A model generated the notes under the pieces. The model was not told the DNA's origin. It saw nothing but the letters and a program-made list of their open reading frames with translations, and made no database searches. DNA of 64,000 nucleotides from Escherichia phage vB_EcoM_CRP22. Both the position numbers and the translations under genes were made by a program. Positions 44,523-60,765 of the stretch are shown piece by piece. The DNA is taken from the sequence record OQ708377.1; one strand, given 5' to 3'. Position 1 is the first letter of the stretch, and each line of letters starts with the position of its first letter.

Positions 44523-44793
44523 AGCAGATTGGGAAATAAAAGACCTAATAAGTGATGCTGGAAATGGTTGTGAGATGTATATGATTCGTGGCCATATACC
44601 AGACCCATTAGCTCTTGAGATGATTGACCGTCACACAAACGGATTCTACAAAGAACTAGGTGAACCAAATGTTGAACGCACTTGGACAAAACCAGTACCA
44701 GATAGCACAGGCAACTGTTCAGTAATCTATCACATTGTGAATCCACAAAAATGCAAAACAGCTATGGCTGTGACATTCGTAACTTTTGATTGA
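44515..44793 (+). CDS. hypothetical protein
   Basis: 92-aa ORF. Confidence 0.3.
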   Translation: MAKADWEIKDLISDAGNGCEMYMIRGHIPDPLALEMIDRHTNGFYKELGEPNVERTWTKPVPDSTGNCSVIYHIVNPQKCKTAMAVTFVTFD

Positions 44794-44803
44794 GAGTAAA
44801 ACT

Positions 44804-45685
44804 ATGAAAACATCTATCCGTGTTATAATTCATTCACCGACAAAAGGGTCTCATGAAGAAGAGTTTAACATCATCCAGTTCCCTTCTGGTGAGATTGGTG
44901 GACACTTTTCACAAGAGCTTGTCGATTTTACTGCTTATGCAGCATCGTCCATCAACAATGTGATTATGATTGTAAAAGGCTACGACAAGGACACATTGTT
45001 TGCTGTGGCACTTGCTAAAGAAGCAATTGATGATTTAATTCCTCATGATTATGCCTTAAAGACTGTCATCTTTTACTACTTACCAAATGCACGATATGAC
45101 CGTCACATGTTTAAAGGTGATGCAGCAGCTTTGAAGGTTTTTGCTAAACAGGTTAATGCAATGAGGTTTGGTGCGGTCTGTGCAGTTGACCCTCACAGTT
45201 ATGTGCCAGATAACCTGTTTAACTGCTTCCAAAGTATTCCTCAAAATGAAATTGCAGTCCACTATGCAAATGACCCACTGGTTGATTACTTAGTAGCCCC
45301 AGATGCAGGTGCTTCTAAGAAGATTGCAGAGACTGCTAAAGAGGTGGATAAACCATACATCACAATGTCTAAAGTACGTAACCTTCAGACTGGTGAAATT
45401 ACTGGTATGCGAATCCTTGATGATGTGGATTTGACAGATAAAACTGTCATGATTCTTGATGATATCTGTGATGGAGGTCGTACCTTCATAGAGGCAGCTA
45501 AACATCTTCGTGAATCAGGTGCAAAACGTGTGGAACTCTATGTAACTCATGGCATTTTCTCTAAAGGTGTTGAAAATCTTCTTGACAATGGCATTGACCA
45601 CATCTACACTACAAACTCTTTAGGGGAAGCTAAAGACCGTGGTTTAACACATTATGGTCAAGTTACTGTAGCAAACCTTGATTAA
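44804..45685 (+). CDS. PRPP-synthetase-fold protein (ribose-phosphate pyrophosphokinase-like; candidate ADP-ribose pyrophosphokinase Adps)
   Basis: PRPP/ribose-5-phosphate binding loop VMILDDICDGGRTFIEAAKHL; start set at ATG 44804 preceded by GAGAG; directly upstream of NAMPT-like gene. Confidence 0.65.
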   Translation: MKTSIRVIIHSPTKGSHEEEFNIIQFPSGEIGGHFSQELVDFTAYAASSINNVIMIVKGYDKDTLFAVALAKEAIDDLIPHDYALKTVIFYYLPNARYDRHMFKGDAAALKVFAKQVNAMRFGAVCAVDPHSYVPDNLFNCFQSIPQNEIAVHYANDPLVDYLVAPDAGASKKIAETAKEVDKPYITMSKVRNLQTGEITGMRILDDVDLTDKTVMILDDICDGGRTFIEAAKHLRESGAKRVELYVTHGIFSKGVENLLDNGIDHIYTTNSLGEAKDRGLTHYGQVTVANLD

Positions 45686-45694
45686 AACTTTATA

Positions 45695-45715
45695 GGGGCT
45701 TCAAAGCCCCATTTT
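45695..45715 (+). terminator. hairpin (attenuator/terminator-like) between the NAD-pathway genes
   Basis: ggggcttcaaagcccc followed by ATTTT. Confidence 0.45.
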
Positions 45716-45731
45716 GAGAGAGATTAAAAAG

Positions 45732-47513
45732 ATGACTAAATCACTTTATGCAGTACCAGCAGGTCTTAATGCAGATGCTTACAAGGCATCACATATATAT
45801 CAGTATCCAGATGCTACACAGTATCTTATGTTGAACCTGACACCACGTAGTGATAAATGGTTTAACAGCCCTTTAGCCATTGACGGTGTAGTTGCTTTTG
45901 GTATTCAACGTTTTGTTAAAGATTACCTGATAGACCACTGGAATGCCACCTTCTTCGAACGTGACAAAAAAGAAGCAATTGACGAAATCTTAGAAGTCAT
46001 GAACGGTGTTCTGGGTAAAGATGCTATCGGTAGAGAACATTGGGAAGCACTTCACGACTTAGGTTATCTACCAGTTGAAGTATACGCTGTAGAAGAAGGC
46101 ACAGTTGTCCCTATGCGTGTACCAATGATTGTCTTCCAGAACACTGTTTCAGGTTTCCATTGGGTAGCGGGGTATCTGGAAGATGCTTTCTCTGCTGAGA
46201 TTTGGAAGGCTTGTACCATTGCAACTATTGCATTGCACTACAAACGTATCTGTAAGAAGTGGTCTGACCTTACTTGTGACAACGACTTGCATTTGCCTTA
46301 TCAGTGCCATGATTTTGCTATGCGTGGTATGTCCGGCTTTACTGATGACGCATTTAACGCTGTAGGACACTTAACCAGCTTTAAAGGGACTGATAGCTTC
46401 CCTGCTGTATATACAGCTAAACGCATCTACGGTCAGTCCTACCCAATCTCTGATATTGGTAGCTCTGTACCCGCCACTGAACACTCTGTAATGTGTGCAA
46501 ACATTGCTTGGGAAGGTGGTAATGAGTTGATTGAAGAAGAAAGACGCTTTAAAGGTGAGTTACAAACCTTCCGTCGTTTCTTAACAGAAACTTACCCAAC
46601 TGGTATTGCAAGTGTTGTTTCAGACACTTATAACTTCTGGAGAACTGTGTCAGAAATTTTACCAGCACTTCGTAAAGAAATTATGGAACGTGATGGCAAA
46701 CTGGTAATTCGTCCTGACTCTGGAGACCCTGTACATATTATCACAGGTTATAAAGCAATCCACTTAGAATGTGCTAAGAAGGCTTATTACGAGCACCTAA
46801 GCAAGCTGGAAGCCAGTGACACAATGCTGAATGCTGTTCTGAACATGAAGCTTGAAAACATCAACTATGGTATTGCTGGATGGCTACTGTCAGAAGGCTA
46901 CGAGATGGTTGTTGACAGAGAAGACTTTGAAGTTGCTGATACAGTGCTGTTGAAAAACGCTTATATGGTTGGCTCTGCAAACGTTGTAACACGTCCTGTA
47001 GCAGAGATTGATGGGGCTATTAAGACCTTGTATAACATCTTTGGAGGGACTATCAACTCTAAAGGCTTTAAGGTACTGGATGAGCACATTGGCCTCATCT
47101 ATGGTGACTCTATCACGCTGGAACGTGCAAACGAAATCCTGAAGCGTTTGTATGAAATGGGTTTTGCAAGCTCTAACGTAGTGTTTGGTGTAGGCTCTTA
47201 CACTTACCAGTATATGACTCGTGACACCTTTGCATTTGCTGTTAAAGCAACTCTTGCAAGTATTGGTGGCAAAGAGATTATGCTTGCAAAAGACCCTAAA
47301 ACAGACAGTGGTGTTAAGAAGTCTGCTTTTGGTGGTGTAGCACCTATGTGGGATGGCGATAAGCTGAAAGCTGTAGATGGCTATGGATTCCAGAGCTTTG
47401 CAGATGTGCTTGAACATCCAGCTTGTGCTTTACGTTTAGTCTTTAGTGACTCTGAGCAGTTCGGTTACACAACTCTTGGTGATATTCGAAATAATATTGA
47501 CAAGCAGCTTTAA
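45732..47513 (+). CDS. nicotinamide phosphoribosyltransferase-family protein (NadV/NAMPT-like; candidate Namat)
   Basis: About 594 aa from ATG 45732 (MTKSLYAVPAGLNADAYK...), N-terminus and length typical of NAMPT/NadV family (recalled); preceded by GAGAGAG. Confidence 0.7.
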   Translation: MTKSLYAVPAGLNADAYKASHIYQYPDATQYLMLNLTPRSDKWFNSPLAIDGVVAFGIQRFVKDYLIDHWNATFFERDKKEAIDEILEVMNGVLGKDAIGREHWEALHDLGYLPVEVYAVEEGTVVPMRVPMIVFQNTVSGFHWVAGYLEDAFSAEIWKACTIATIALHYKRICKKWSDLTCDNDLHLPYQCHDFAMRGMSGFTDDAFNAVGHLTSFKGTDSFPAVYTAKRIYGQSYPISDIGSSVPATEHSVMCANIAWEGGNELIEEERRFKGELQTFRRFLTETYPTGIASVVSDTYNFWRTVSEILPALRKEIMERDGKLVIRPDSGDPVHIITGYKAIHLECAKKAYYEHLSKLEASDTMLNAVLNMKLENINYGIAGWLLSEGYEMVVDREDFEVADTVLLKNAYMVGSANVVTRPVAEIDGAIKTLYNIFGGTINSKGFKVLDEHIGLIYGDSITLERANEILKRLYEMGFASSNVVFGVGSYTYQYMTRDTFAFAVKATLASIGGKEIMLAKDPKTDSGVKKSAFGGVAPMWDGDKLKAVDGYGFQSFADVLEHPACALRLVFSDSEQFGYTTLGDIRNNIDKQL

Positions 47514-47526
47514 AAGTATATGATAA

Positions 47527-47550
47527 GAGGCTCCTACGGGAGCCTTTTTA
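47527..47550 (+). terminator. rho-independent terminator
   Basis: aggctcctacgggagcct hairpin plus TTTTT. Confidence 0.65.
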
Positions 47551-47566
47551 ATTTCTGGAGAATACT

Positions 47567-47902
47567 ATGAAAATCAAAGAAATGAACATCAATGTTGTCT
47601 TAGAAGAACGCTGGGAGAACATCAAGAAGCCTGAAAATGGTCATAAGTTCCTCAACAAAATCTTAGTAGCAGCTAAAGAAGAACTGACTGGCAAGGTTGC
47701 AGCAGCAATCACAATAAAGGTCTGTGTAAAAGGTCTTCCAGACAATCACCAATTTGCACTTGACGAGTTTAAAGAAAGCTTCTACAATCCAAACAAACAG
47801 ATGCTTGAAAGTAACTTTGCAGTATCTACAAGCATCGTTCATGACAGAAGCTTTATCCTTTACAAGAATATGAGAGGTGAGTCATGCAAGCATATTGGAT
47901 AG
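47567..47902 (+). CDS. hypothetical protein
   Basis: 111-aa ORF. Confidence 0.3.
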   Translation: MKIKEMNINVVLEERWENIKKPENGHKFLNKILVAAKEELTGKVAAAITIKVCVKGLPDNHQFALDEFKESFYNPNKQMLESNFAVSTSIVHDRSFILYKNMRGESCKHIG

Positions 47903-48060
47903 AAATTTTACTGTCACTTGGTAGTGTAGCAGTGTTTGTTTACCTTCTTTGTAAGTACTTTGCAGAACACAAAAAATGTGACTACTGTAACGGAGAGGGG
48001 TACATAAGGGCAGGTTGTTGCCCTATGTGTGGTGGTTCTGGTAAAATGTTTAATAAGTAA
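47884..48060 (+). CDS. small membrane-anchored DnaJ-type zinc-finger protein (58 aa)
   Basis: N-terminal hydrophobic helix then two CxxCxGxG repeats (CDYCNGEG, CPMCGGSG); below ORF-track cutoff. Confidence 0.4.
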   Translation: MQAYWIEILLSLGSVAVFVYLLCKYFAEHKKCDYCNGEGYIRAGCCPMCGGSGKMFNK

Positions 48061-48088
48061 TTTAACAGTAAACTAAGAGGAAAGTATT

Positions 48089-50455
48089 ATGCGCATGGTA
48101 AATGACCACGCAGAAGTGATTAAAAGTTCAACTTCTTTAGAGACATCTCAAGCACAGATTACAATGACACCTGAAATGTTCAGCCTTTTGAGTTCTGGTG
48201 TATATACATTTAAAGAGCGAGCAGTAATTCGTGAACTGTCATGTAACGCAGTAGATGCTCAGAAAGAAGCTGGAAAAGAGAACATCCCGTTCCATGTGCA
48301 TTTACCTACTCGTTTTGAGCCTTACTTTGAAGTTCGTGATTTTGGAACTGGATTGACTCATGATAAAGTTATGAGTTTGTATCTAAACTACGGGGCTTCT
48401 ACGAAGAATGACTCTAATGACTACATTGGTGCAATGGGTATCGGCTCAAAATCTCCATTTGCAATTGCTCAGTCATTCACAGTATCTAGCTATGTTGATG
48501 GTGTTGTTAATAAGTACTCTGTTTACCTTGAGAATGGTATCCCTCAAGTAACTAAGCTGACCACCAACCCAACAAAAGAACCTAATGGTTTAGCTGTACG
48601 TGTAGCAGTTGCTGACCATCGTATCTCAAAGTTCTTTGAAGAGGCTGGTCACGTATACTCATACTTTGCTGTAAAACCAGAAAGTAATATCGAGTATGAC
48701 GATGTATTAGCAGATATGAATGTCATTGCCCGTGAAGAAGGTGTTTATGATGCTATGATTCATAAGCAAAGCTGGCGTTCTAGTGGCAACAGGATAGAGT
48801 TTAATGTGGTAATGGGTAATATTGCCTACCCAGTGAACATGGAAGCATTACTTGGTGATGATTTCTTCAAAGTCTTGCCAGAGTTTTTCCGTAGGAGCAT
48901 AGACCTTGTAAACATCTACATGCCTATTGGTTCAGTGGCTATTGCAGCTTCTCGTGAAGCATTGCAGATGAATGACACGACAAAAAATGTTATCATTGAG
49001 GCTACTAAAAAGATAACTGAAGCCATTACAAAGGATGTTATCAAGAAAGTTAACAGCCAACCTACACTCATGGATGCTGCACAGGCTTATGCTGAGTTAC
49101 GTTTGAACTCACGAGAGATGTTTAATGTTGTGTGTCCAAAGCTAGAGTGGGGAGGCGTTAAGCTTGATTCTCTGGAAGTAGAATTACTAAACATCCGTCG
49201 TGGGATTATCTACGCAGAAGACGGCTCAGTCATTTATGAACGTGACGGTAAAGGTAATATCAAGGTTGATAGGAACGGGAACAATATCCCTAAAGTGGAT
49301 TATCTTTATAATCCAGTTGCTTATGTCAAGTTCAACTCTTTAGAGAGTAAGATTCGTGCAACAGCACTTTCCTACACTCAAGAGGCAAGTATGTTCAATA
49401 TCTTTGGCGCAATGCGTAAAAGTCAAATTGAACAGTTTTTGTTTGTTATAAACGACCGTCGCAATAAAAATGGTACTGAGAAGACTGTAGGACGCAATCA
49501 GATTCTGCGTGGTGCATGTCGAGACTATGCCAGTGAGTCTAGTCTGTTTCACAGATACAATGGTATCGTCTTTGTATTCTCTACCGAGAAAGAGTTAGAC
49601 GACCTAATCAATCTGCACAAACTTGATAAAAGCTTGTTAAAGATTGTGAAGATGTCTGATAAGGAACATCATTATCAGCGTAAAGAAGCTGTAAGAGGTG
49701 TTGTAAAACTCTGGAAAGCTGTTCCAGCAGAAGGTGTAGCTTCATACAAAGAGGTGTCAGAAGACTTAGATACGATTGAAGAGCCTCAGCTTTATATTAA
49801 GGCAGTAGGCGACACAGTTGATGGCGAATGTTTTTGCTCATCTCCAGAAGATGTAGCTAAGTCAGTTGCCAATGTCATTGGGAAGACAGTTTATGTTTTC
49901 CGAAAAGCAAATTGGAAAAAGATACCAGAAGACTGGATTGAAGTAGATGAGAAGCTCTTGAACGATAGCTTAACTGATGTTCACTGGATTAATCATAACA
50001 GGTATATGACACGTATCTATATGAATGGTGTCCTAGACCTGACAAGCAGTTGGATTATTGCCAGAAACTTTACGTTCAATAACAGGAAGATTTCTCGTGG
50101 TTATTGCTATTCACGAGATACAAACAAAACTATCTTCTTAGAAGGTAATGAAGATGCTGTTGAGGCAATGTTTGGAAAAATCCAATACGTTGCTGCACCG
50201 TTTGCATACACTTACACTGTTAGCAGGTTGCAAACTTTGAAAGAATGCCTTGACAACGATACAAAGCTGTACAAGAAAATTAAGAAAGCTGGCGACCGTA
50301 TGGTCATTAAGGTGACAAACTATCTTTCAAAAAGAAAACAAGAAAACTTCTTGCTTTCTCATTTAGATTGGAATAAAGTGTCACCCATCGAAGTGAGTAA
50401 GTTCTTAGGCTTTGATGTGAAGTGTGTCCCAGAAGGGACTACAATTTACGATTAA
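48089..50455 (+). CDS. rIIA: rIIA-like protein with GHKL-type ATPase domain
   Basis: 788 aa; Bergerat-fold motifs: N-box ELSCNAVDA, G1 VRDFGTGLT, G2 GAMGIGSKS. Confidence 0.5.
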   Translation: MRMVNDHAEVIKSSTSLETSQAQITMTPEMFSLLSSGVYTFKERAVIRELSCNAVDAQKEAGKENIPFHVHLPTRFEPYFEVRDFGTGLTHDKVMSLYLNYGASTKNDSNDYIGAMGIGSKSPFAIAQSFTVSSYVDGVVNKYSVYLENGIPQVTKLTTNPTKEPNGLAVRVAVADHRISKFFEEAGHVYSYFAVKPESNIEYDDVLADMNVIAREEGVYDAMIHKQSWRSSGNRIEFNVVMGNIAYPVNMEALLGDDFFKVLPEFFRRSIDLVNIYMPIGSVAIAASREALQMNDTTKNVIIEATKKITEAITKDVIKKVNSQPTLMDAAQAYAELRLNSREMFNVVCPKLEWGGVKLDSLEVELLNIRRGIIYAEDGSVIYERDGKGNIKVDRNGNNIPKVDYLYNPVAYVKFNSLESKIRATALSYTQEASMFNIFGAMRKSQIEQFLFVINDRRNKNGTEKTVGRNQILRGACRDYASESSLFHRYNGIVFVFSTEKELDDLINLHKLDKSLLKIVKMSDKEHHYQRKEAVRGVVKLWKAVPAEGVASYKEVSEDLDTIEEPQLYIKAVGDTVDGECFCSSPEDVAKSVANVIGKTVYVFRKANWKKIPEDWIEVDEKLLNDSLTDVHWINHNRYMTRIYMNGVLDLTSSWIIARNFTFNNRKISRGYCYSRDTNKTIFLEGNEDAVEAMFGKIQYVAAPFAYTYTVSRLQTLKECLDNDTKLYKKIKKAGDRMVIKVTNYLSKRKQENFLLSHLDWNKVSPIEVSKFLGFDVKCVPEGTTIYD

Positions 50456-50460
50456 AGTGT

Positions 50461-50490
50461 TTGACAAGGGGCTTTGAAGCCCCTTAGAAT
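50461..50490 (+). promoter_or_regulatory. sigma70 consensus-like promoter with hairpin in spacer (TTGACA-N18-TAGAAT)
   Basis: TTGACA 50461-50466; spacer aggggctttgaagcccct is itself a hairpin; TAGAAT 50485-50490. Confidence 0.55.
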
Positions 50491-50534
50491 AGCCTTACAA
50501 AATGATTTATTAACTAACAAGAGAGAGTAATAAG

Positions 50535-51644
50535 ATGACTACTAAAACTAAAGCACAGATTGACGCAGAAATTTACAAACTGGTTAAAGAAGGCAAGCTG
50601 ACTAAAACAGCTATTGCACAGAAGTTCAATACTTCAACCCGTTCAGTTGGTCGTGCTGTAGAGCGTCATGAAGCAACCTTAAAGGGTAAGAAAAAGGTAG
50701 CTTCTACACCAGCTACGAAGACTTTGAAGCAAGTTGCTAAGTCAGTTAAAAAGAAAGCTGACAAACCAGTTGAAAAGGTCGTTAAAGAGTCTGTACAGAA
50801 AGCTCCAGTAAATAAACTGCATGAAGCTATGCAGAAAGATGACAAGATTGAGTACATGATTACTGGCGACTCTGTAATTATGACTTACGGTTCAGAATCT
50901 GAAATTGTTGAGTCTACTCATCCGAACTATCAAGAGATTGTAGTTCATGTTGTGAAAGGTGAGTTCAAGAAAGCTTTCGAACTGATGAACATTCGTAAAT
51001 CTATCGAAAACTTCACTCAGGGTGCTATCACAATCAAAGGTGACAAGCTATTCTACGGTGCTGTTGAGATGCGTTCTACTCTGGTTGACCGTATCCTTCA
51101 CATGATGAAGACTGGTGATAAAGGTTTTGAACGACTTGTAATGTTCTTCGAAAAACTGATGGAAAACCCATCTAAAGACTCTGTAGAACAACTTTGGGGA
51201 TTCGTATCTCACCTTGATGTTGAAATTGATGAAGAGGGTTACATCATTGGTTGGAAGAAAGTCTCTACTCGTGAAGGCAAACTGGTTGACTCTCACACCT
51301 ACAAAGTACCTAATGATTTGGGTAACATTGTAGAGATGCCACGTTGGATGGTTGATAACAACCGTAACGTAACTTGCTCTCAAGGTCTTCATGTTGGTGC
51401 TTGGGATTATGTTCGTTGCTTCTCAGGTGATACCATCCTGAAGGTTCGTGTCCATCCACGAGATGTTGTATCTGTTCCAACTGATTACAACGATATGAAG
51501 ATGCGCTCATCCCGTTATGAAGTTGCAGCAATCGTTGATAATCAGCGTAGAGTGCTGAAAGCATGGGACGGTAAGACTGAGGCTTTGCATGTCATCGTTG
51601 GCACTGCTGGTGAACTTATCTCTCAACGGAAACGTGAAATCTAA
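50535..51644 (+). CDS. hypothetical protein (rIIB-like by position only)
   Basis: 369 aa immediately downstream of rIIA-like gene; no motif recognised. Confidence 0.25.
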   Translation: MTTKTKAQIDAEIYKLVKEGKLTKTAIAQKFNTSTRSVGRAVERHEATLKGKKKVASTPATKTLKQVAKSVKKKADKPVEKVVKESVQKAPVNKLHEAMQKDDKIEYMITGDSVIMTYGSESEIVESTHPNYQEIVVHVVKGEFKKAFELMNIRKSIENFTQGAITIKGDKLFYGAVEMRSTLVDRILHMMKTGDKGFERLVMFFEKLMENPSKDSVEQLWGFVSHLDVEIDEEGYIIGWKKVSTREGKLVDSHTYKVPNDLGNIVEMPRWMVDNNRNVTCSQGLHVGAWDYVRCFSGDTILKVRVHPRDVVSVPTDYNDMKMRSSRYEVAAIVDNQRRVLKAWDGKTEALHVIVGTAGELISQRKREI

Positions 51645-51658
51645 TAAGTAATTTCTTA

Positions 51659-51685
51659 AAAGGCTGCTTCGGCGGCCTTTTTTAT
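51659..51685 (+). terminator. rho-independent terminator
   Basis: aggctgcttcggcggcct hairpin plus TTTTTTATTT. Confidence 0.65.
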
Positions 51686-51744
51686 TTGTATTTTGTGCAG
51701 AGTGCTGTATAATTGTTGTCACGATAAACTAAACAGGAGAACCA

Positions 51745-52293
51745 ATGAAGAAGTTGATTCTAGGTTTGTGCTTAATGTTTACAGCACACTTATCTTATGC
51801 AGTTGACTGCCCAGAGCTATCAATTAGCCAAAAAGTAAACATGCTAAAAGCTTACCAGTATGGTGAGAATAATATGGGGAAAGGTTGGGGTATCACTCTA
51901 GCTGCTATAGCCTTACAAGAGTCAGAGTTAGGTCTGAAGGTAGAGAATAAAAAGACCCATGACTATGGTATCTTCCAGAATCACTTGAAGACTGTTGTAA
52001 AGCGTAACAAAATCAGTCCTAATGTGGCTAAAAAGAAACTCTTAAAAGATTTTGACTATGCTGCAAAGGAAACACACAAAGAGCTTGAGTTTTGGACGAA
52101 GGTACATGGTCAACCAAAGTCAAAGAAGACTTTACAAAAAGTTTTAGCATCATATAATGCTGGGTATTCATACAAAATCCCTAAAGCTAAGAAATATTCT
52201 CAAGATGTCTATAACAACATGAAAGTTATTGCTCAATGTGAATTTGCAACAAACATTTCTAAGGTAAATCATGAAAAAATTAAGAAAGTCTGA
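51745..52293 (+). CDS. secreted lytic transglycosylase (SLT domain) candidate
   Basis: Signal peptide MKKLILGLCLMFTAHLSYA; catalytic-type AIALQESELG and YNAG motif (ASYNAGYS). Confidence 0.45.
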   Translation: MKKLILGLCLMFTAHLSYAVDCPELSISQKVNMLKAYQYGENNMGKGWGITLAAIALQESELGLKVENKKTHDYGIFQNHLKTVVKRNKISPNVAKKKLLKDFDYAAKETHKELEFWTKVHGQPKSKKTLQKVLASYNAGYSYKIPKAKKYSQDVYNNMKVIAQCEFATNISKVNHEKIKKV

Positions 52294-52966
52294 TGAAGTA
52301 CTGTGTCATGCTTATGACTTACATCCTCATGAGTTAGGTCTTGATTCCTGTGTATGGACTCCAGAACAGTGTAGGGATTTTGAAGACACCGCAAGAGAAG
52401 TTGTATGTTCACTCGAAGAGTTCCACACATCAGAGACAATTGTGAATGTTGTAGATAAAGAGACTGGGCAAACTATAGGTGTAAGTCGTGACAGCTTAGT
52501 CATAGTCAATAAAGACTTTGTAGAAAAAGGTAACCTTATCTTAGCAGACATTGATGGTGTTCTTACAAATTTTAATCACGAAGATTACTCAACGGAATTG
52601 ATTGATGGGTCATTTTCACAGTACACTAATTTGCTTGACTCTGTAAGAGCAAAACCAACGTATATTTTCAATATTATTGATGCAATTGCTAACCATGCTG
52701 CCATTGGACTCTTGACAGCGAGGGGTGAATCTCAGAGAATACCTACTGAGATGTTTTTAAGGCATTACATAGAGCATGATTACATGCTTTTTATGCGTGG
52801 TTTTGGAACTAACTCTATAAATGCAGAAAGTTTGAAAGTGAGGATGATTCAGTCTTGCATTCTTCCTTACTTTAATATAGTATGCTTTATAGAAGACACA
52901 GAGAAGAATGTGCAGAAGGTGAACAGAATCCTTCCACACATCAAAACCATGTTAGTTAAACATTGA
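52271..52966 (+). CDS. HAD-superfamily hydrolase-like protein
   Basis: 231 aa; motif I-like LADIDGVLT (DxDG[VT]). Confidence 0.3.
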   Translation: MKKLRKSDEVLCHAYDLHPHELGLDSCVWTPEQCRDFEDTAREVVCSLEEFHTSETIVNVVDKETGQTIGVSRDSLVIVNKDFVEKGNLILADIDGVLTNFNHEDYSTELIDGSFSQYTNLLDSVRAKPTYIFNIIDAIANHAAIGLLTARGESQRIPTEMFLRHYIEHDYMLFMRGFGTNSINAESLKVRMIQSCILPYFNIVCFIEDTEKNVQKVNRILPHIKTMLVKH

Positions 52967-52976
52967 GAGAAAACTT

Positions 52977-53441
52977 ATGAACAATATCATTACGGTAGCA
53001 CTGGACGTTACGGCAAACAAATCTGAAGTAGTTCGTAACATTATCAAAAACAACTTTGAGGGTAAAATCTTCCGTGCTGTCAATGTAAAAGCAGACGGTA
53101 ACATCCGAGAGTATCGTGCTCTTCTGAATGTCAAGAAACACGTCAAAGGTGCTGGTTCAACGACTGCACACAAAGAAAACCTGATGACTATCTATGATAT
53201 GGGTATGGCTTCAGAGTTAGGTGCTGAAGGTATCGTTAAAGAAGGTGCTCCGTATCGCTCTTTCAATCTGGAAACTGCTCTTATGCTTTCCTTTACAAGT
53301 GGTTCTAAAACAACTACTTATCTCTTTACTGATGCTGCAACGGTATCTGCTATCAAGGATAGCACCGTCAAAGCTGGGGTAGCTGCTGCTGCAAAAGCTT
53401 CTTCGATGGCTGCGAATGTCCTTGCTAAAGTCCTCGGTTAA
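52977..53441 (+). CDS. hypothetical protein
   Basis: 154-aa ORF. Confidence 0.3.
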   Translation: MNNIITVALDVTANKSEVVRNIIKNNFEGKIFRAVNVKADGNIREYRALLNVKKHVKGAGSTTAHKENLMTIYDMGMASELGAEGIVKEGAPYRSFNLETALMLSFTSGSKTTTYLFTDAATVSAIKDSTVKAGVAAAAKASSMAANVLAKVLG

Positions 53442-53451
53442 GGTTAAGATA

Positions 53452-53477
53452 CAGGCTCCTTCGGGAGCCTTTTTCAT
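53452..53477 (+). terminator. rho-independent terminator
   Basis: caggctccttcgggagcctt hairpin plus TTTT. Confidence 0.65.
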
Positions 53478-53493
53478 TTCAGGAGATTGTTAA

Positions 53494-53841
53494 ATGACAT
53501 TCAAAGAGTTCTGTCAAGCTACTTTCATAATTGTTTTCTTAGTTGGAGCAGGTGTCTGGGGGGGATACTCTTACAGAGACTATCAAGTTGCTGAAGCTGA
53601 GCTAAATAATGAGAAACTAATAAGTGTTGCTAAAGATGCTTATCAGGAAGGTTTAGCCACACTCAGCACCAATTACAAAAATGATTTGAAAGATGTGCTT
53701 GCTAAGAATAAGCACACAAAAGAGGTAATAACATATGAAAAGACTAAGCCAGAGTTTTATAATGTTTGTGTTACTGATAATTATGTCAGGGTGTTCAACG
53801 AACAAAGTGAACAGTACATTCAAAAACTCCCAAGTAAGTGA
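53494..53841 (+). CDS. i-spanin (Rz-like) candidate
   Basis: 115 aa; N-terminal TM (FIIVFLVGAGVWGGY) then coiled-coil-type periplasmic region; overlaps lipoprotein ORF. Confidence 0.45.
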   Translation: MTFKEFCQATFIIVFLVGAGVWGGYSYRDYQVAEAELNNEKLISVAKDAYQEGLATLSTNYKNDLKDVLAKNKHTKEVITYEKTKPEFYNVCVTDNYVRVFNEQSEQYIQKLPSK

Positions 53842-54004
53842 GAGTGACAAGTACACTCAAGAAGAGTCAAGATTCACTGTCAAAGGTAATACTGGTAGTG
53901 ATGTGGCAGCAGCCCTTGAGTTTTATCGTGATGGTTTTTACCAGTGCACAATCAAAGCTAATAACCTTATTGATATGATTTTATTAGGAAACAAACAGCA
54001 ATGA
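53735..54004 (+). CDS. o-spanin (Rz1-like) lipoprotein candidate, overlapped in +1 frame
   Basis: 89 aa; signal and lipobox MKRLSQSFIMFVLLIIMSGC; begins inside Rz-like gene and extends past it; RBS AGAGG. Confidence 0.4.
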   Translation: MKRLSQSFIMFVLLIIMSGCSTNKVNSTFKNSQVSESDKYTQEESRFTVKGNTGSDVAAALEFYRDGFYQCTIKANNLIDMILLGNKQQ

Positions 54005-54270
54005 CAGAGAATGAAGATACTTTCTATGTAGAAGGGTACTTACTGCTACCACGACCAAAAGAAACTTATATGCGGGTTGATTTTTCACCAACCATTATGG
54101 ATAACGTGATGTGCCATATCTTTATGCAAGGTGTCACAGCACAGCTTAAGCATGTTGGTAAAGAGTGCAAAATAAAGGTTGACACTCATCCAGAAATCAA
54201 AGAGAATCACTACACATGGTTCTTACCAGACTCTAAAGAAATCTTAGCAGTTCTTAAAACGAGGAAATGA
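54001..54270 (+). CDS. hypothetical protein
   Basis: 89-aa ORF. Confidence 0.3.
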   Translation: MTENEDTFYVEGYLLLPRPKETYMRVDFSPTIMDNVMCHIFMQGVTAQLKHVGKECKIKVDTHPEIKENHYTWFLPDSKEILAVLKTRK

Positions 54271-54581
54271 TTATGCAATTCCAGCCAACAAATCGTGGAT
54301 TTTCTTATGCAGAATTTAAAGATGCTAAAGGAGAGATTTGTACTTTACAAGAAAGTTCATCATATGAACCATGTATCTGGTTAGGTGCTAAAGAGGTCTC
54401 TGTTCAGTACCTAGATGGTGGCTGGAAAACACTTGATATCCCAGCATTAGTAGGCAAAGATTTTGTAGGTAACCAAAGAATGAAACTCAACCAAGAACAG
54501 GTGAAAGAGTTATTACCATACCTTCAGTACTTTGCTGAGAATGGTGAATTACCAACAGAGGAACTTACAAATGCAGATTAA
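54267..54581 (+). CDS. hypothetical protein
   Basis: 104-aa ORF. Confidence 0.3.
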   Translation: MIMQFQPTNRGFSYAEFKDAKGEICTLQESSSYEPCIWLGAKEVSVQYLDGGWKTLDIPALVGKDFVGNQRMKLNQEQVKELLPYLQYFAENGELPTEELTNAD

Positions 54582-54897
54582 TGGAAGAGACTTTGTAGCC
54601 GTTTACTACGAGAAAGATAAAGAAGTTGGCGTAGCACAAGTATCTTATGGTAATGGTAAGTGGTTGTATGGGACAATCGCAGTAGTCGGAACAAGAAGTG
54701 ATACAAAAACTTTTAAAGATTGTGTTGACCTTCTTGAAGAATCCATCCACAATCATTGGTGTCTGATATGGATGACTGACAACGAAGTGATAGAACGCTT
54801 CAAAAAGATTGGTATCAACATTGATAGTATTGAGCATGTTGATTTATACGAACTAACTGAGAAGGTAAACTATGAGAGTAATACTAGCCAGAGATAA
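54571..54897 (+). CDS. hypothetical protein
   Basis: Start at ATG 54571 (MQINGRDF...) preceded by GAGG. Confidence 0.3.
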   Translation: MQINGRDFVAVYYEKDKEVGVAQVSYGNGKWLYGTIAVVGTRSDTKTFKDCVDLLEESIHNHWCLIWMTDNEVIERFKKIGINIDSIEHVDLYELTEKVNYESNTSQR

Positions 54898-55099
54898 AAA
54901 GACACGGAAACTTATCAGGTCAGCGGTGTTCATTGGACGAAATGAGGTCATACCATTTACAGCAAATGATGTGATAGCTTACCGGAAGAACTTAGTATTC
55001 ACTGACTGTTTACGTGGCTTTATCTCTGAACCATTAGAAGACTTTAAAAGTCGTTGTGGTAAAGGTATCATCATTCAAGAGGCAATTATTCATGGCTGA
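54872..55099 (+). CDS. hypothetical protein
   Basis: 75-aa ORF with RBS GAGAAGG. Confidence 0.3.
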   Translation: MRVILARDKKTRKLIRSAVFIGRNEVIPFTANDVIAYRKNLVFTDCLRGFISEPLEDFKSRCGKGIIIQEAIIHG

Positions 55100-55292
55100 C
55101 TTCTGCAAAGACTGTGCTATCGAAATGTTCGGACGTGATACAGGTGACTTAAAAGGTCTTATCACTGAAGATGACTTTAAAGCTGGCTATGCAATGCCAG
55201 TAATCTGTGAAGGCTGTGGATGTATCTGGGTAGACCACGAAGGACAACGTGTAAAACCTTCAGAAGATAAAGAATCTTGGGAGAGATGTTAA
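55092..55292 (+). CDS. small Cys-rich protein
   Basis: Start at ATG 55092 (MADFCKDC...); CKDC ... CEGCGC cysteine pairs. Confidence 0.3.
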   Translation: MADFCKDCAIEMFGRDTGDLKGLITEDDFKAGYAMPVICEGCGCIWVDHEGQRVKPSEDKESWERC

Positions 55293-56078
55293 ATGGGTAT
55301 TGTAAAAATCATCAATGGGGATATCTTCTCCGCATTTGATAAAGGTAAGTTTGATGTTATTGGTCACGGTTGCAACTGTATGAATTTAATGGGTGCAGGT
55401 ATCGCTGACAAGATTTCTAAACTTTACCCAAAAGCATATGAGACTGATACAGAAGTCTATCTGTATGCAGGTGGTATAGGTCACAAACCCTGTGAAAATT
55501 TACTAGGCAATTTCTCTGTAGCACGTTTAGAACAAGGCCGTATAGCTAACCTTTACACTCAGCTTAAGACTGGTAAAGATGCCCGATACAGTGCTTTAGA
55601 GTCATCTTTGAAACAACTTAACAGATACTGTGAAGTCAATCAGTTGAAGAAAGTTGGGTTACCTATGATTGGTGCAGGTATCGGTGGACTAGACTCTCAA
55701 GCCGTCACAGTCATCATTAATCAGGTGATGAAGAGTGTAGATGTGTATCTGTATGTCTATGAAGGAGAGATGTACCACAAGTTACGCTCAGGTTGGAAGA
55801 ACTACTGTGAACCAGAATACTTTGCTGGTGTAGTAGTGTTCACTAATGATGTAGTTACCCTCTTCAGACGAAGAAAAGGCAAGATACATCAAAGTAACCC
55901 TCCGGTTGAAAAGATGTCTCTAAGTAACGCTCTAGTTACCCACCTGTCGAAGAGCAATCACAGAATTGCAGTAACATTTGGCAGTGATGCAGATACATAT
56001 ATCTATGCAAGAACTGATGAGGATGTTGAGGAAATTTTCTCTTCACCGGAAGTAACCTTCTTAGACGCAAAGAACTAA
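55293..56078 (+). CDS. macro-domain protein (ADP-ribose binding/hydrolase candidate)
   Basis: N-terminal IINGDIF, GHGCNCMNLMGAGIADKI and later GLPMIGAGIGGLD match the macro-domain G-rich loop pattern. Confidence 0.5.
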   Translation: MGIVKIINGDIFSAFDKGKFDVIGHGCNCMNLMGAGIADKISKLYPKAYETDTEVYLYAGGIGHKPCENLLGNFSVARLEQGRIANLYTQLKTGKDARYSALESSLKQLNRYCEVNQLKKVGLPMIGAGIGGLDSQAVTVIINQVMKSVDVYLYVYEGEMYHKLRSGWKNYCEPEYFAGVVVFTNDVVTLFRRRKGKIHQSNPPVEKMSLSNALVTHLSKSNHRIAVTFGSDADTYIYARTDEDVEEIFSSPEVTFLDAKN

Positions 56079-56152
56079 GAAACTCTGTAGAATATTCACA
56101 ATAAACTAAGCCTTTCTTATCTGGTAAATTTTTCAGGTAAGGAGGGCTTTTT

Positions 56153-56330
56153 CATTTTAGAATTGTGCAGGTAGAGTTCTGTAGAGAAATCTGTAGAGAA
56201 AATTTTGAACTCCAAAGAGAAAATTCATTTTCAAACTGTGCAGGTAATCTCCAAAGAGCTTTTTCATTTTCAAAACGTGCAGACCCCGCTCAGGTCGGGC
56301 AAGAAAAATCATTTTAGAATTGTGCAGGTA
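56153..56330. repeat. four direct repeats of a 21-bp box CATTTT(A/C)(G/A)AA(n)(T)GTGCAG(G/A)(T/C)(A/C)
   Basis: Boxes at 56153-56173, 56226-56246, 56265-56285, 56310-56330 (first and last identical); also tandem TCTGTAGAGAAA x2 and TCCAAAGAG x2. Confidence 0.6.
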
Positions 56331-56506
56331 GGTGGGTGCATGTGGGGATGTCGCCATTTCTCACAAGGCTACCACATCTGAAAAGAAAAGTCAACAGAAA
56401 AATTTGTAGCGGATTGAAAAATAATTCTTGATTGTAGTTCTGTTTTGTGGTAGTCGCGTGCGCCCGTTTCATTACAGTTTTTGCAAAAATATTTTTAAAA
56501 TTCCTA

Positions 56507-60198: not shown

Positions 60199-60765
60199 AT
60201 GAAATGCTATCACGGCACTACTCTGAAAAACTTTGTAAACCTGCTTAAAGGTGGCGACAAGCCGGAAGGTATCTGGAACTGCTCTTACATGGATGATTGT
60301 TTTTACGTTTACCCGATGGATAAGATTATCAAGACGGAATGCCTGGAAGATGAAGAAGACCCTTACATCCGTGAACGCTGCATTCAAAACGCTTTAGAGT
60401 CGGGGCTTATTACGGCAGCTTTCCAAATGGAAACGCAGGAAGTGATTGTAATTGAGATGGATATCCCAGAGGAAGAGCTTGAGGATGATTATTCTTGTGA
60501 CAACATGAGCGAAATCGCCAGCTTTACCGGTTACTTTGATAAAGATTGGATTATCGGTATTCACTCGACGAAATTTAGTGCAATGTATGCGCCATTCTTT
60601 GTTCCTGATACAACTAACCATAATTTGGGCTATATTGACGATGATTTGTTGAGTATTGCAAAAATTGTACAGAATAGCGGGGAGACTTCTTCTGTGTTTT
60701 GTGACCTGCTGGATAAAATTACCGAGAATCTCACAGAGCGCAATCTAAGCGACTTTTTAGACTAA
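60199..60765 (+). CDS. early-region protein with ADP-ribosyltransferase-like (H-G-T) N-terminal motif
   Basis: 188 aa; MKCYHGTTLKNFVNLLKGGDKP resembles the YHGT NAD-binding strand-helix of diphtheria-toxin-class ARTs and Tpt1/KptA (recalled); aromatic-rich SYMDDCFYVY; acidic stretches. Confidence 0.35.
   Translation: MKCYHGTTLKNFVNLLKGGDKPEGIWNCSYMDDCFYVYPMDKIIKTECLEDEEDPYIRERCIQNALESGLITAAFQMETQEVIVIEMDIPEEELEDDYSCDNMSEIASFTGYFDKDWIIGIHSTKFSAMYAPFFVPDTTNHNLGYIDDDLLSIAKIVQNSGETSSVFCDLLDKITENLTERNLSDFLD

What the first reader, a model, noticed from the sequence alone, without database searches (positions are those of the whole stretch)
55293..56078. Macro-domain protein at the boundary of the early region
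The N-terminal half shows macro-domain hallmarks (IINGDIF; GHGCNCMNLMGAGIADKI; GLPMIGAGIGGLD), followed by an unassigned extension of about 100 aa. Macro domains bind or hydrolyse ADP-ribose conjugates and O-acetyl-ADP-ribose. In a phage that also carries a candidate ADPR-to-NAD+ pathway and an ART-like protein, this suggests counter-action of ADP-ribosylation-based or NAD+-derived-signal immunity, or feeding ADPR into the reconstitution pathway.
Basis: partly seen in the sequence, partly recalled or inferred. Interest (0 to 1): 0.55.

Follow-up and report, generated by a model that had tools for sequence, protein, structure and literature searches.

The report
Phage ADP-ribose-phosphate phosphatase with orphan domain
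This Felix O1-like phage gene encodes a macro-domain enzyme of the same family as Adpp, a recently described phage phosphatase that strips the phosphate from ADP-ribose-1''-phosphate so the phage can rebuild NAD+ after bacterial immune attack; here the gene sits far from the NAD+-rebuilding genes and carries an extra domain with no known relatives.

Summary
Window 55293-56078 (+) is a real 261-aa ORF with an N-terminal macro domain and a folded C-terminal domain of about 100 aa. The window is a Felixounavirus. The protein is 96% identical to Bas63 gp95 ('putative phosphatase').

The macro domain belongs to the Poa1p-like/Adpp family (profile-profile probability 100%, E 2e-47). It keeps the histidine whose mutation inactivates Adpp (Gary H24 = Poa1p H23 = H25 here). 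It lacks the catalytic Lys and Asp of DarG/TARG1 ADP-ribosyl glycohydrolases (Q90, G131).

The same genome carries NARP1 (Adps 44786-45685, Namat 45714-47513), shown experimentally in Bas63. A January 2026 preprint showed that Adpp converts ADPR-1''-phosphate, the product of the aRES defence, into ADPR for NARP1. It counted only macro genes within two genes of NARP1. This gene lies 7.8 kb downstream, so the whole subfamily Ounavirinae was missed.

Most likely function: an unlinked Adpp-type ADPR-1''-P phosphatase that feeds NARP1. This is inferred, not shown.

What is new is the C-terminal domain. It is restricted to Ounavirinae, has no detectable sequence or fold relatives, and its appearance coincides with loss of an otherwise invariant Trp next to the phosphate-binding loop.

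Verdict: a new variant of a known kind, of moderate interest.

The parts
55293..56078 (+). Complete gene for the 261-aa two-domain macro protein (ortholog of Bas63 gp95 'putative phosphatase'), stop codon included
   Evidence: ORF listing and translation; 96.2% identical to Bas63 bas63_0095; PHROG 335 E 3e-112
55293..55763 (+). Macro domain, residues 1-157, Poa1p-like/Adpp type. Signature residues: H25, N28, M33-G-A-G-I-A38, D52, N86-L-Y-T-Q90, P124-x-I-G-A-G-I-G-G132
   Evidence: Pfam; AF2 model; Foldseek against PDB; hhalign against the Adpp alignment, probability 100%, E 2.2e-47; signature table
55764..56075 (+). C-terminal orphan domain, residues 158-261: helix, six beta-strands, helix. 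Only P174, G179 and Y236 are (nearly) invariant
55279..55285 (+). Shine-Dalgarno-like GGGAGAG, 7 nt before the ATG; the upstream ORF's TAA stop abuts the ATG (TAAATG)
   Evidence: Sequence read
56108..56159 (+). Intrinsic-terminator-like hairpin (17-bp stem, 8-nt loop) with a T-rich tail, 30 nt after the stop codon
   Evidence: sequence
44786..45685 (+). Adps (ADPR diphosphokinase; annotated ribose-phosphate pyrophosphokinase), first NARP1 enzyme and presumed downstream partner
   Evidence: Pfam Pribosyltran and Pribosyl_synth; Bas63 g79 shown experimentally
45714..47513 (+). Namat (nicotinamide ADPR-transferase; annotated NAMPT), second NARP1 enzyme; lies 7,780 nt upstream of the macro gene on the same strand
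   Evidence: Pfam NAPRTase and NAMPT_N; 97.9% identical to Bas63 gp80; experiments

Best explanation
The gene encodes an Adpp-type (Poa1p-like) macro-domain phosphatase. Its most likely reaction is hydrolysis of the 1''-phosphate of ADP-ribose-1''-phosphate to give ADP-ribose. In this phage the ADP-ribose would then be taken up by NARP1: Adps makes ADPR-PP, and Namat adds nicotinamide to give NAD+. ADPR-1''-P is what RES-domain NAD+ phosphorylases such as the aRES defence produce, and NARP1 alone cannot use it. The macro protein would therefore extend NARP1 into a 'NARP1-AP' pathway, even though the gene lies 7.8 kb from the NARP1 operon. A second possible source of substrate is the phage's own pathway: ADPR-PP decays to ADPR-cyclic-phosphate, and its ring-opened form would also need a phosphatase to be recycled. 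This second source is my inference. The C-terminal domain has no conserved polar residues and so is unlikely to be catalytic. It probably packs against the macro domain near the second glycine-rich (phosphate-binding) loop and modifies substrate access, stability or partner binding. Shown here: the fold, the family membership, conservation of the catalytic His, absence of glycohydrolase residues, co-occurrence and conserved synteny with NARP1, and dispensability of the ortholog on lab hosts. Inferred: the substrate, the coupling to NARP1, the anti-aRES role, and any role of the C-domain.
For: (1) Macro fold with high confidence. (2) Same family as the NARP1-adjacent Adpps: hhalign probability 100%, E 2.2e-47 over 154 columns; BLASTP 27-36% identity with E 1e-17 to 9e-9 against Adpps, including the biochemically tested Vibrio phage Gary enzyme. 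(3) The residue whose mutation abolishes Adpp function (Gary H24A), which is also the Poa1p H23 probed in PDB 6LFS, aligns with H25. H25 is invariant in all 26 family members aligned and in all Adpps. N28, D52, N86, Y88 and Q90 are likewise shared with Adpps. (4) NARP1 is in the same genome and on the same strand, and was validated experimentally in the 96-98% identical phage Bas63. (5) The arrangement Adps-Namat...rIIA-rIIB...PNK-like...macro is retained in relatives whose macro protein is only 32-43% identical and in Erwinia Kolesnikvirus M7. (6) The preprint's screen looked only within two genes of NARP1, and its Table S1 lists no Escherichia, Salmonella, Shigella or Erwinia phage, so this lineage was not assessed. 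(7) aRES homologs are listed in Escherichia, Salmonella and Shigella genomes, the hosts of these phages. (8) Bas63 gene 95 is non-essential on lab E. coli (scores +0.6 to +1.1, against -2 to -3 for structural genes), as expected of a conditional counter-defence gene.
Against: No activity has been measured for this protein or any two-domain member. The gene is not in the NARP1 operon, so the guilt-by-association that defined Adpp is weaker here. Its conserved co-occurrence across Ounavirinae could simply reflect vertical inheritance of one genome backbone. The family is much broader than NARP1: 2,852 phage records carry a homolog against 2,024 with Namat, and among phages named 'Escherichia' the figures are 998 against 191. 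Many carriers, for example T4 with Tk.4, have no Namat, so the family must have at least one NARP1-independent role. The protein's best BLAST match among the characterised or named proteins compared is T4 Tk.4 (34%). It shares Tk.4's short loop after 'YTQ' rather than the longer loop of most NARP1-adjacent Adpps. The tree does not resolve which it is closer to: YTQ clade 5/60, Adpp monophyly 1/60. The Trp that is invariant in Adpps ('GGDW') is replaced here by Ser135. PhageMaP did not report gene 95 as a counter to any defence system in its panel, and aRES was never tested against a Felixounavirus.
Confidence: 0.55

Rival explanations
1. It is a DarG/TARG1/AdfM-like ADP-ribosyl glycohydrolase. 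It would remove ADP-ribose from phage DNA, RNA or proteins modified by host ADP-ribosyltransferase defences such as DarT or CmdT-like toxins.
For: The top structural neighbours are the DarG and TARG1 macrodomains. The only NCBIfam hit is antitoxin_DarG, E 1e-12. Phage DarG-like macrodomains with this function exist, for example AdfM of PhiKZ, and PHROG 335 lumps AdfM with this protein.
Against: The NCBIfam score is 48 bits against a curated cut-off of 250. The catalytic Lys (TARG1 K84, the DarG/AdfM 'FPTK' motif) is an invariant Gln (Q90), and TARG1 D125 is G131. AdfM and TARG1 separate from the His/Gln-type family in 44 of 60 bootstraps. AdfM lacks the His that is invariant here.
Confidence: 0.12
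2. It has the same chemistry (ADPR-1''-P phosphatase, or another small-molecule ADPR-derivative hydrolase) but a NARP1-independent role, as must be the case for T4 Tk.4. Examples would be clearing ADPR-1''-P or ADPR-cyclic-phosphate made by a Tpt1/KptA-like RNA 2'-phosphotransferase during RNA repair (the phage has a PNK-like gene at 52271-52966 and a gp107 homolog said to resemble Tpt1), or detoxifying an ADPR-derived metabolite.
For: Poa1p's native role is in the Tpt1 to Cpd1 to Poa1p pathway. The family is widespread in phages without Namat. The protein is marginally closest to Tk.4. PhageMaP notes that gp107 has slight structural similarity to the NAD-binding domain of RNA 2'-phosphotransferase. 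A PNK-like gene is conserved between NARP1 and the macro gene.
Against: The gp107 homolog (60199-60765) has no detectable sequence match to any PDB chain or named family. No RNA ligase or 2H cyclic phosphodiesterase is annotated in the parts of Bas63 that were inspected. T4-type PNK removes 2',3'-cyclic phosphates directly, so a Tpt1 step is not required (my own knowledge).
Confidence: 0.2
3. It is a non-catalytic ADPR-binding module or a hydrolase of ADPR-derived immune signals, for example Thoeris gcADPR or His-ADPR. It would act as a sponge or signal eraser, with the C-terminal domain providing specificity or oligomerisation.
For: Macro domains bind ADPR derivatives generally. The orphan C-domain and the loss of the conserved Trp beside the binding loop show that the ligand site was remodelled in this clade.
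Against: There is no similarity to known Thoeris or CBASS anti-defence proteins in any search. The invariant catalytic His and the other active-site residues are under strong conservation, typical of an enzyme of the Adpp/Poa1p type. PhageMaP reported no such phenotype for this gene.
Confidence: 0.08

Closest known systems
Adpp, the NARP1-associated ADPR-1''-phosphate phosphatase (Vibrio phage Gary KNV71_gp137; Osterman et al., bioRxiv 10.64898/2026.01.28.702374)
   Same: Macro fold, and the same sequence family (hhalign probability 100%). Shared H/N/MGxGIA/D/N-x-Y-[GT]-Q/P-x-I-G-x-G signature, including the His that is essential for Adpp function. Encoded by a phage that also has Adps and Namat.
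   Different: The gene is 7.8 kb (about 15 genes) from NARP1 instead of inside the operon. The protein has an extra 104-aa C-terminal domain (Adpps are about 150-170 aa). It lacks the invariant Trp of 'GGDW' and the longer loop after 'YGQ'. Its activity is untested.
Saccharomyces cerevisiae Poa1p (PDB 6LFQ/6LFR), ADP-ribose-1''-phosphate phosphatase of the tRNA-splicing by-product pathway
   Same: Foldseek probability 1.00, TM 0.74. The N-terminal motif 'IHSCNC..WGGGIA..YPKA' aligns with 'IGHGCNC..MGAGIA..YPKA', placing Poa1p H23 on H25.
   Different: About 22% identity. Poa1p S30 and F152, probed by the depositors, are L32 and G131 here. It is eukaryotic and housekeeping, with no C-terminal domain.
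T4 Tk.4 (17.5 kDa 'A1pp phosphatase motif' protein) and other one-domain phage macro proteins of PHROG 335
   Same: Best pairwise match among the named proteins compared (34% identity, E 1e-19). Same 'HGCNC' and 'NLYTQ' motifs and the same short loop.
   Different: Tk.4 is one-domain, keeps the Trp, and sits in a phage group in which Namat matches are far rarer than macro matches. That T4 itself lacks NARP1 is my own knowledge; it was not tested here. Its function is unknown.
DarG / TARG1 / phage AdfM (PhiKZ gp104) ADP-ribosyl glycohydrolases
   Same: Nearest solved structures. AdfM is a phage counter-defence macrodomain in the same PHROG.
   Different: The catalytic Lys is replaced by Gln and TARG1's Asp by Gly. 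AdfM has no equivalent of H25. They fall in a separate branch of the tree.

Membership tests
Macro domain superfamily (Pfam PF01661) | Three-layer alpha/beta/alpha macro fold with two glycine-rich ADPR/phosphate-binding loops | tested here: met
   Pfam 31.4 bits against a cut-off of 22. AF2 pLDDT 92.9. Foldseek probability 1.00 to many macrodomains. The loops MGAGIA (33-38) and GAGIGG (127-132) are present.
Adpp (NARP1-AP phosphatase) | Sequence membership in the Poa1p-like phage macro family that contains the tested Gary enzyme | tested here: met
   hhalign A1 against A3: probability 100%, E 2.2e-47. BLASTP to Gary Adpp E 9e-9 and to PaP1 Adpp E 1e-17.
Adpp (NARP1-AP phosphatase) | Catalytic histidine (Gary H24; H24A abolishes anti-aRES activity) | tested here: met
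   H25 aligns with Gary H24 and Poa1p H23 and is invariant.
Adpp (NARP1-AP phosphatase) | Gene located within the NARP1 operon (within two genes of Adps/Namat; the operational definition in the preprint) | tested here: not met
   The gene is 7,780 nt and about 15 genes downstream of Namat. It is on the same strand and in the same genome, and the spacing is conserved across Ounavirinae.
Adpp (NARP1-AP phosphatase) | Invariant Trp after the second Gly-rich loop ('GGDW') in the Adpps of Table S1 | tested here: not met
   Ser135 occupies this position here. All 15 two-domain proteins lack the Trp and all 11 one-domain homologs keep it.
Adpp (NARP1-AP phosphatase) | Converts ADPR-1''-P to ADPR and enables NARP1 to overcome aRES | not testable with these tools
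   This needs an enzyme assay and phage genetics. aRES was not tested on any Felixounavirus.
DarG / TARG1-type ADP-ribosyl glycohydrolase | Catalytic lysine (TARG1 K84; DarG/AdfM 'PTK') and, for TARG1, Asp125 | tested here: not met
   K84 aligns with Q90 and D125 with G131 in the profile alignment, and in MAFFT.
DarG antitoxin (NCBIfam NF048014 equivalog) | Score above the curated cut-off, and a DarT-binding C-terminal domain | tested here: not met
   48.1 bits against a cut-off of 250, matching the macro part only. The C-domain has no match to anything.
MacroD / YmdB-type hydrolase | N-x6-GG[VLI]D motif with a catalytic Asp (motif recalled from the literature) | tested here: not met
   The corresponding stretch is N28-x5-GAGIA38. 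An invariant Ala sits where the Asp would be.

The most novel reading that the evidence does not exclude
The Ounavirinae protein may not be simply a displaced Adpp. It could be a functionally distinct two-domain enzyme, in which the orphan C-terminal domain packs beside the remodelled phosphate-binding loop (the Trp is lost in all two-domain members) and changes what the macro domain acts on or with whom. Examples: accepting ADPR-1'',2''-cyclic phosphate, the decay product of NARP1's own intermediate ADPR-PP; docking onto Adps/Namat to channel ADPR; or binding a host NADase. That would make it a new accessory component of phage NAD+ reconstitution, and would define a new protein domain.
Probability: 0.2. 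Interest if true: 0.65.

Novelty: new variant of a known kind. Interest (0 to 1): 0.45.

Why it matters
If correct, the NARP1-AP counter-defence is more widespread than the 15% of NARP1 phages reported, because operon-adjacency screens miss unlinked phosphatases. All Felix O1-like phages would then be predicted to resist aRES-type NAD+ phosphorylases. These phages are common therapeutic and diagnostic phages of Salmonella, E. coli, Shigella, Citrobacter and Erwinia; 242 records carry the two-domain form. It also gives a concrete, cheap experiment in a tractable system: Bas63, where NARP1 deletions and a genome-wide knockout library already exist. In addition it flags an orphan domain fused to a known enzyme, whose role could reveal how the phosphatase is regulated or targeted. 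Finally, it cautions that database labels for this family ('phosphatase', 'O-acetyl-ADP-ribose deacetylase', 'DarG-like') lump at least two chemistries. These can be told apart by a His/Gln versus Lys signature.

Tried and rejected

(2) C-domain as a 2H cyclic phosphodiesterase. The two 'HxS' strings (HQS, HLS) are not conserved among homologs. Rejected.

(3) C-domain as an aRad1-like aRES inhibitor. BLASTP E > 4, and there is no aRad1 homolog anywhere in the window. Rejected.

(4) C-domain relatives in 1.84 billion proteins. Hits outside its own family were PQQ/BamB beta-propeller repeat proteins and a retroelement polyprotein, matching in many short stretches. I judged these to be repeat-driven noise. 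The 114-aa hit P0030 is a 5'-truncated copy of the same gene.

(5) PHROG membership as a functional discriminator. PHROG 335 also contains the DarG-like AdfM, so it is uninformative.

(6) A phylogeny to place the protein with either the Adpps or Tk.4. The internal nodes are unsupported.

(8) The Tpt1-like neighbour (60199-60765). No sequence-level support.

(9) A September 2026 preprint that mentions NARP1 and ADPR-1P could not be read.

Full report
**Observation**

The finding's coordinates delimit a genuine ORF: ATG at 55293, TAA ending at 56078, 261 codons, + strand. The reverse strand is riddled with stops. The upstream ORF's stop codon abuts the start (TAAATG), and a GGGAGAG Shine-Dalgarno lies 7 nt upstream. 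The gene is therefore the last member of a translationally coupled run of small + strand genes. Thirty nucleotides after the stop there is a 17-bp-stem hairpin with a T-rich tail at 56108-56149. A roughly 400-nt repeat-rich spacer follows. Expression timing was not tested.

**Identity of the window**

The region is 95-99% identical to many Felixounavirus genomes. The protein is 96.2% identical to gp95 ('putative phosphatase') of BASEL phage Bas63 / JohannRWettstein.

**The macro domain**

- Pfam Macro scores above its gathering threshold, E 2e-7.
- A family profile hits TARG1, DarG and Poa1p in the PDB at E 1e-16 to 1e-11.
- An AlphaFold2 model built on 26 homologs is confident: pLDDT 92.9, pTM 0.89.
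- Its residues 1-157 superpose on the DarG, TARG1 and Poa1p macrodomains, with Foldseek probability 1.00 and TM 0.74-0.84 normalised to the target.

**Which kind of macro domain**

Residue-level comparison separates two chemistries.

- In the profile alignment to TARG1, the catalytic K84 aligns with Q90 of an invariant NLYTQ motif, and D125 aligns with G131.
- PhiKZ AdfM is an experimentally proven phage DarG2-like DNA de-ADP-ribosylase. It has the DarG 'FPTK' lysine and no equivalent of H25.
- The N-terminal motif IGHGCNC..MGAGIA..YPKA aligns with Poa1p IHSCNC..WGGGIA..YPKA. This places Poa1p H23 on H25, which is invariant in every homolog aligned.

**Link to Adpp**

A January 2026 preprint (Osterman et al., 10.64898/2026.01.28.702374) reports the following:

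- The aRES defence cleaves NAD+ phosphorolytically to nicotinamide plus ADPR-1''-phosphate.
- The phage NAD+ reconstitution pathway NARP1 cannot use that product.
- 15% of NARP1 operons contain a Poa1p-like macro protein, Adpp, which dephosphorylates ADPR-1''-P to ADPR.

Gary Adpp was purified and shown to do this, and an H24A mutant abolishes anti-aRES activity. Gary H24 aligns with H25 here.

A profile of this protein's family matches a profile of ten Table S1 Adpps with probability 100%, E 2.2e-47, over 154 columns. H25, N28, D52, N86, Y88 and Q90 are shared with the Adpps.

In a neighbour-joining tree the His/Gln-type proteins separate from AdfM plus TARG1 in 44 of 60 bootstraps. Within that family the NARP1-adjacent Adpps are not a clade (1/60), and the position of this protein relative to the Adpps and T4 Tk.4 is unresolved.

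The curated NCBIfam DarG equivalog is hit at only 48 bits against a cut-off of 250.

**Genomic partner**

The window encodes Adps at 44786-45685 and Namat at 45714-47513, adjacent and with no macro gene between them. The Bas63 orthologs (genes 79-80) were shown by two groups to reconstitute NAD+ and to overcome SIR2-HerA. The window's Namat is 97.9% identical to Bas63 gp80 over the 480-residue C-terminal part compared.

The macro gene lies 7,780 nt downstream on the same strand. In between are rIIA, rIIB, a PNK-like gene, spanins and small ORFs.

The preprint scanned only two genes either side of NARP1. Its Table S1 contains no Escherichia, Salmonella, Shigella or Erwinia phage. Its phage panel had no Felix O1-like phage. 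This lineage was therefore not assessed.

The same order, Adps-Namat...rIIA-rIIB...PNK-like...macro, with 8-10 kb spacing, is kept in three metagenomic relatives whose macro protein is only 32-41% identical. It is also kept in Erwinia phage M7, genus Kolesnikvirus, as gp083/gp084...gp101 of 260 aa. The pairing is thus ancient within Ounavirinae. Because the backbone is syntenic, however, this is a single lineage, not independent replication.

**The C-terminal domain**

Residues 158-261 fold as helix, six strands, helix. Evidence that the domain is an orphan:

- It occurs only in Ounavirinae phages: 242 records from Escherichia, Salmonella, Shigella and Citrobacter phages by tblastn, plus more divergent metagenomic and Erwinia versions.
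- Foldseek against the viral structure library finds only the same protein from phage SUSP2.
- An HMM search of 1.84 billion representative proteins finds only its own family, plus repeat-driven matches to PQQ beta-propellers and a retroelement.
- Pfam, NCBIfam and PHROGs give nothing beyond PHROG 335 itself.

Only P174, G179 and Y236 are (nearly) invariant, so a second catalytic activity is unlikely. The two-domain proteins form a clade with 60/60 bootstrap support.

Every two-domain protein (15/15) has lost the Trp that follows the second glycine-rich loop ('GGDW' becomes 'GGLD-S/P/G/A/I'). Every one-domain homolog (11/11) keeps it, as do all ten aligned Adpps, Tk.4 and TARG1. This is one evolutionary event. 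It suggests that acquisition of the C-domain went with remodelling next to the phosphate-binding loop. That the domain contacts this region is my inference; I could not inspect the model coordinates.

**Other data**

In the PhageMaP knockout screen, Bas63 gene 95 scores +0.6 to +1.1 on lab E. coli and on the defence strains that could be read. Structural genes score -2 to -3. Gene 95 is therefore dispensable, and it is not reported as a counter to any system in that panel, which did not include aRES.

**Caveats that limit confidence**

- The macro family is far more widespread than NARP1: 2,852 against 2,024 phage records, and 998 against 191 for phages named Escherichia. It includes T4 Tk.4, whose function is unknown. 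At least some members must therefore work without NARP1.
- This protein is marginally closer to Tk.4 than to the tested Adpp.
- No biochemical or genetic test exists for any two-domain member.

**Conclusion**

The best-supported reading (confidence about 0.55) is an unlinked, two-domain Adpp-type ADPR-1''-phosphate phosphatase that supplies ADPR to NARP1 and would extend Felix O1-like phages' NAD+ reconstitution to aRES-type defences.

A NARP1-independent small-molecule role with the same chemistry comes next (about 0.2). A DarG/TARG1-like glycohydrolase role is disfavoured by the missing catalytic residues (about 0.12). A signal-sponge or signal-eraser role has no positive support (about 0.08).

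Relative to what is known, this is a new variant of a known kind. The enzyme family and pathway were described in 2026. The unlinked arrangement, its conservation across a whole subfamily, and the orphan C-terminal domain have not been described.

Noticed in passing
window 56137-56410: Immediately after the macro gene's terminator there are 4-5 direct copies of a ~25-34-nt unit ending ...TTTTCATTTT(A/C)(G/A)AA(T/C/A)(T/C)GTGCAG, at 56137, 56210, 56249 and 56294 with a weak copy at 56376 (spacing 73/39/45/82 nt). They overlap two small minus-strand ORFs annotated in Bas63 (bas63_0096 and 0097). They could be iterons or repeated promoter or regulator sites at a transcription-unit boundary.
   Followed up: partly
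window 55056-55292 (+): The small ORF translationally coupled to the macro gene (66-78 aa depending on the start) carries CxxC...CxxCxC cysteine pairs (FCKDC...CEGCGC), suggesting a zinc-ribbon mini-protein. No family match was sought.
   Followed up: no
window 60199-60765 (+): This is the homolog of Bas63 gp107, which PhageMaP reports as conditionally important in E. coli S17-1 and as having 'slight' structural similarity to the NAD-binding domain of RNA 2'-phosphotransferase (Tpt1/KptA). Here it matched only PHROG 3303 (unknown function), with no Pfam family and no PDB sequence.
   Followed up: partly
PHROG 335 (database observation): The PHROG annotated 'phosphatase' lumps biochemically distinct proteins: Adpp (ADPR-1''-P phosphatase), T4 Tk.4 (unknown function) and PhiKZ AdfM (DNA ADP-ribosyl glycohydrolase). 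A His25/Gln90 versus Lys signature separates them. Deposited annotations for the same Felixounavirus gene range from 'phosphatase' to 'O-acetyl-ADP-ribose deacetylase'.
   Followed up: partly
window 44786-56078, and loci L003, L004, L005, L008: A conserved + strand block gathers several known or suspected counter-defence or host-takeover functions in a fixed order across Ounavirinae: Adps-Namat (NARP1), rIIA-rIIB, an SLT-like protein, a PNK-like HAD protein, spanins, then the macro protein. Some relatives insert a Dam-like methyltransferase (MethyltransfD12) and HNH endonucleases.
   Followed up: no
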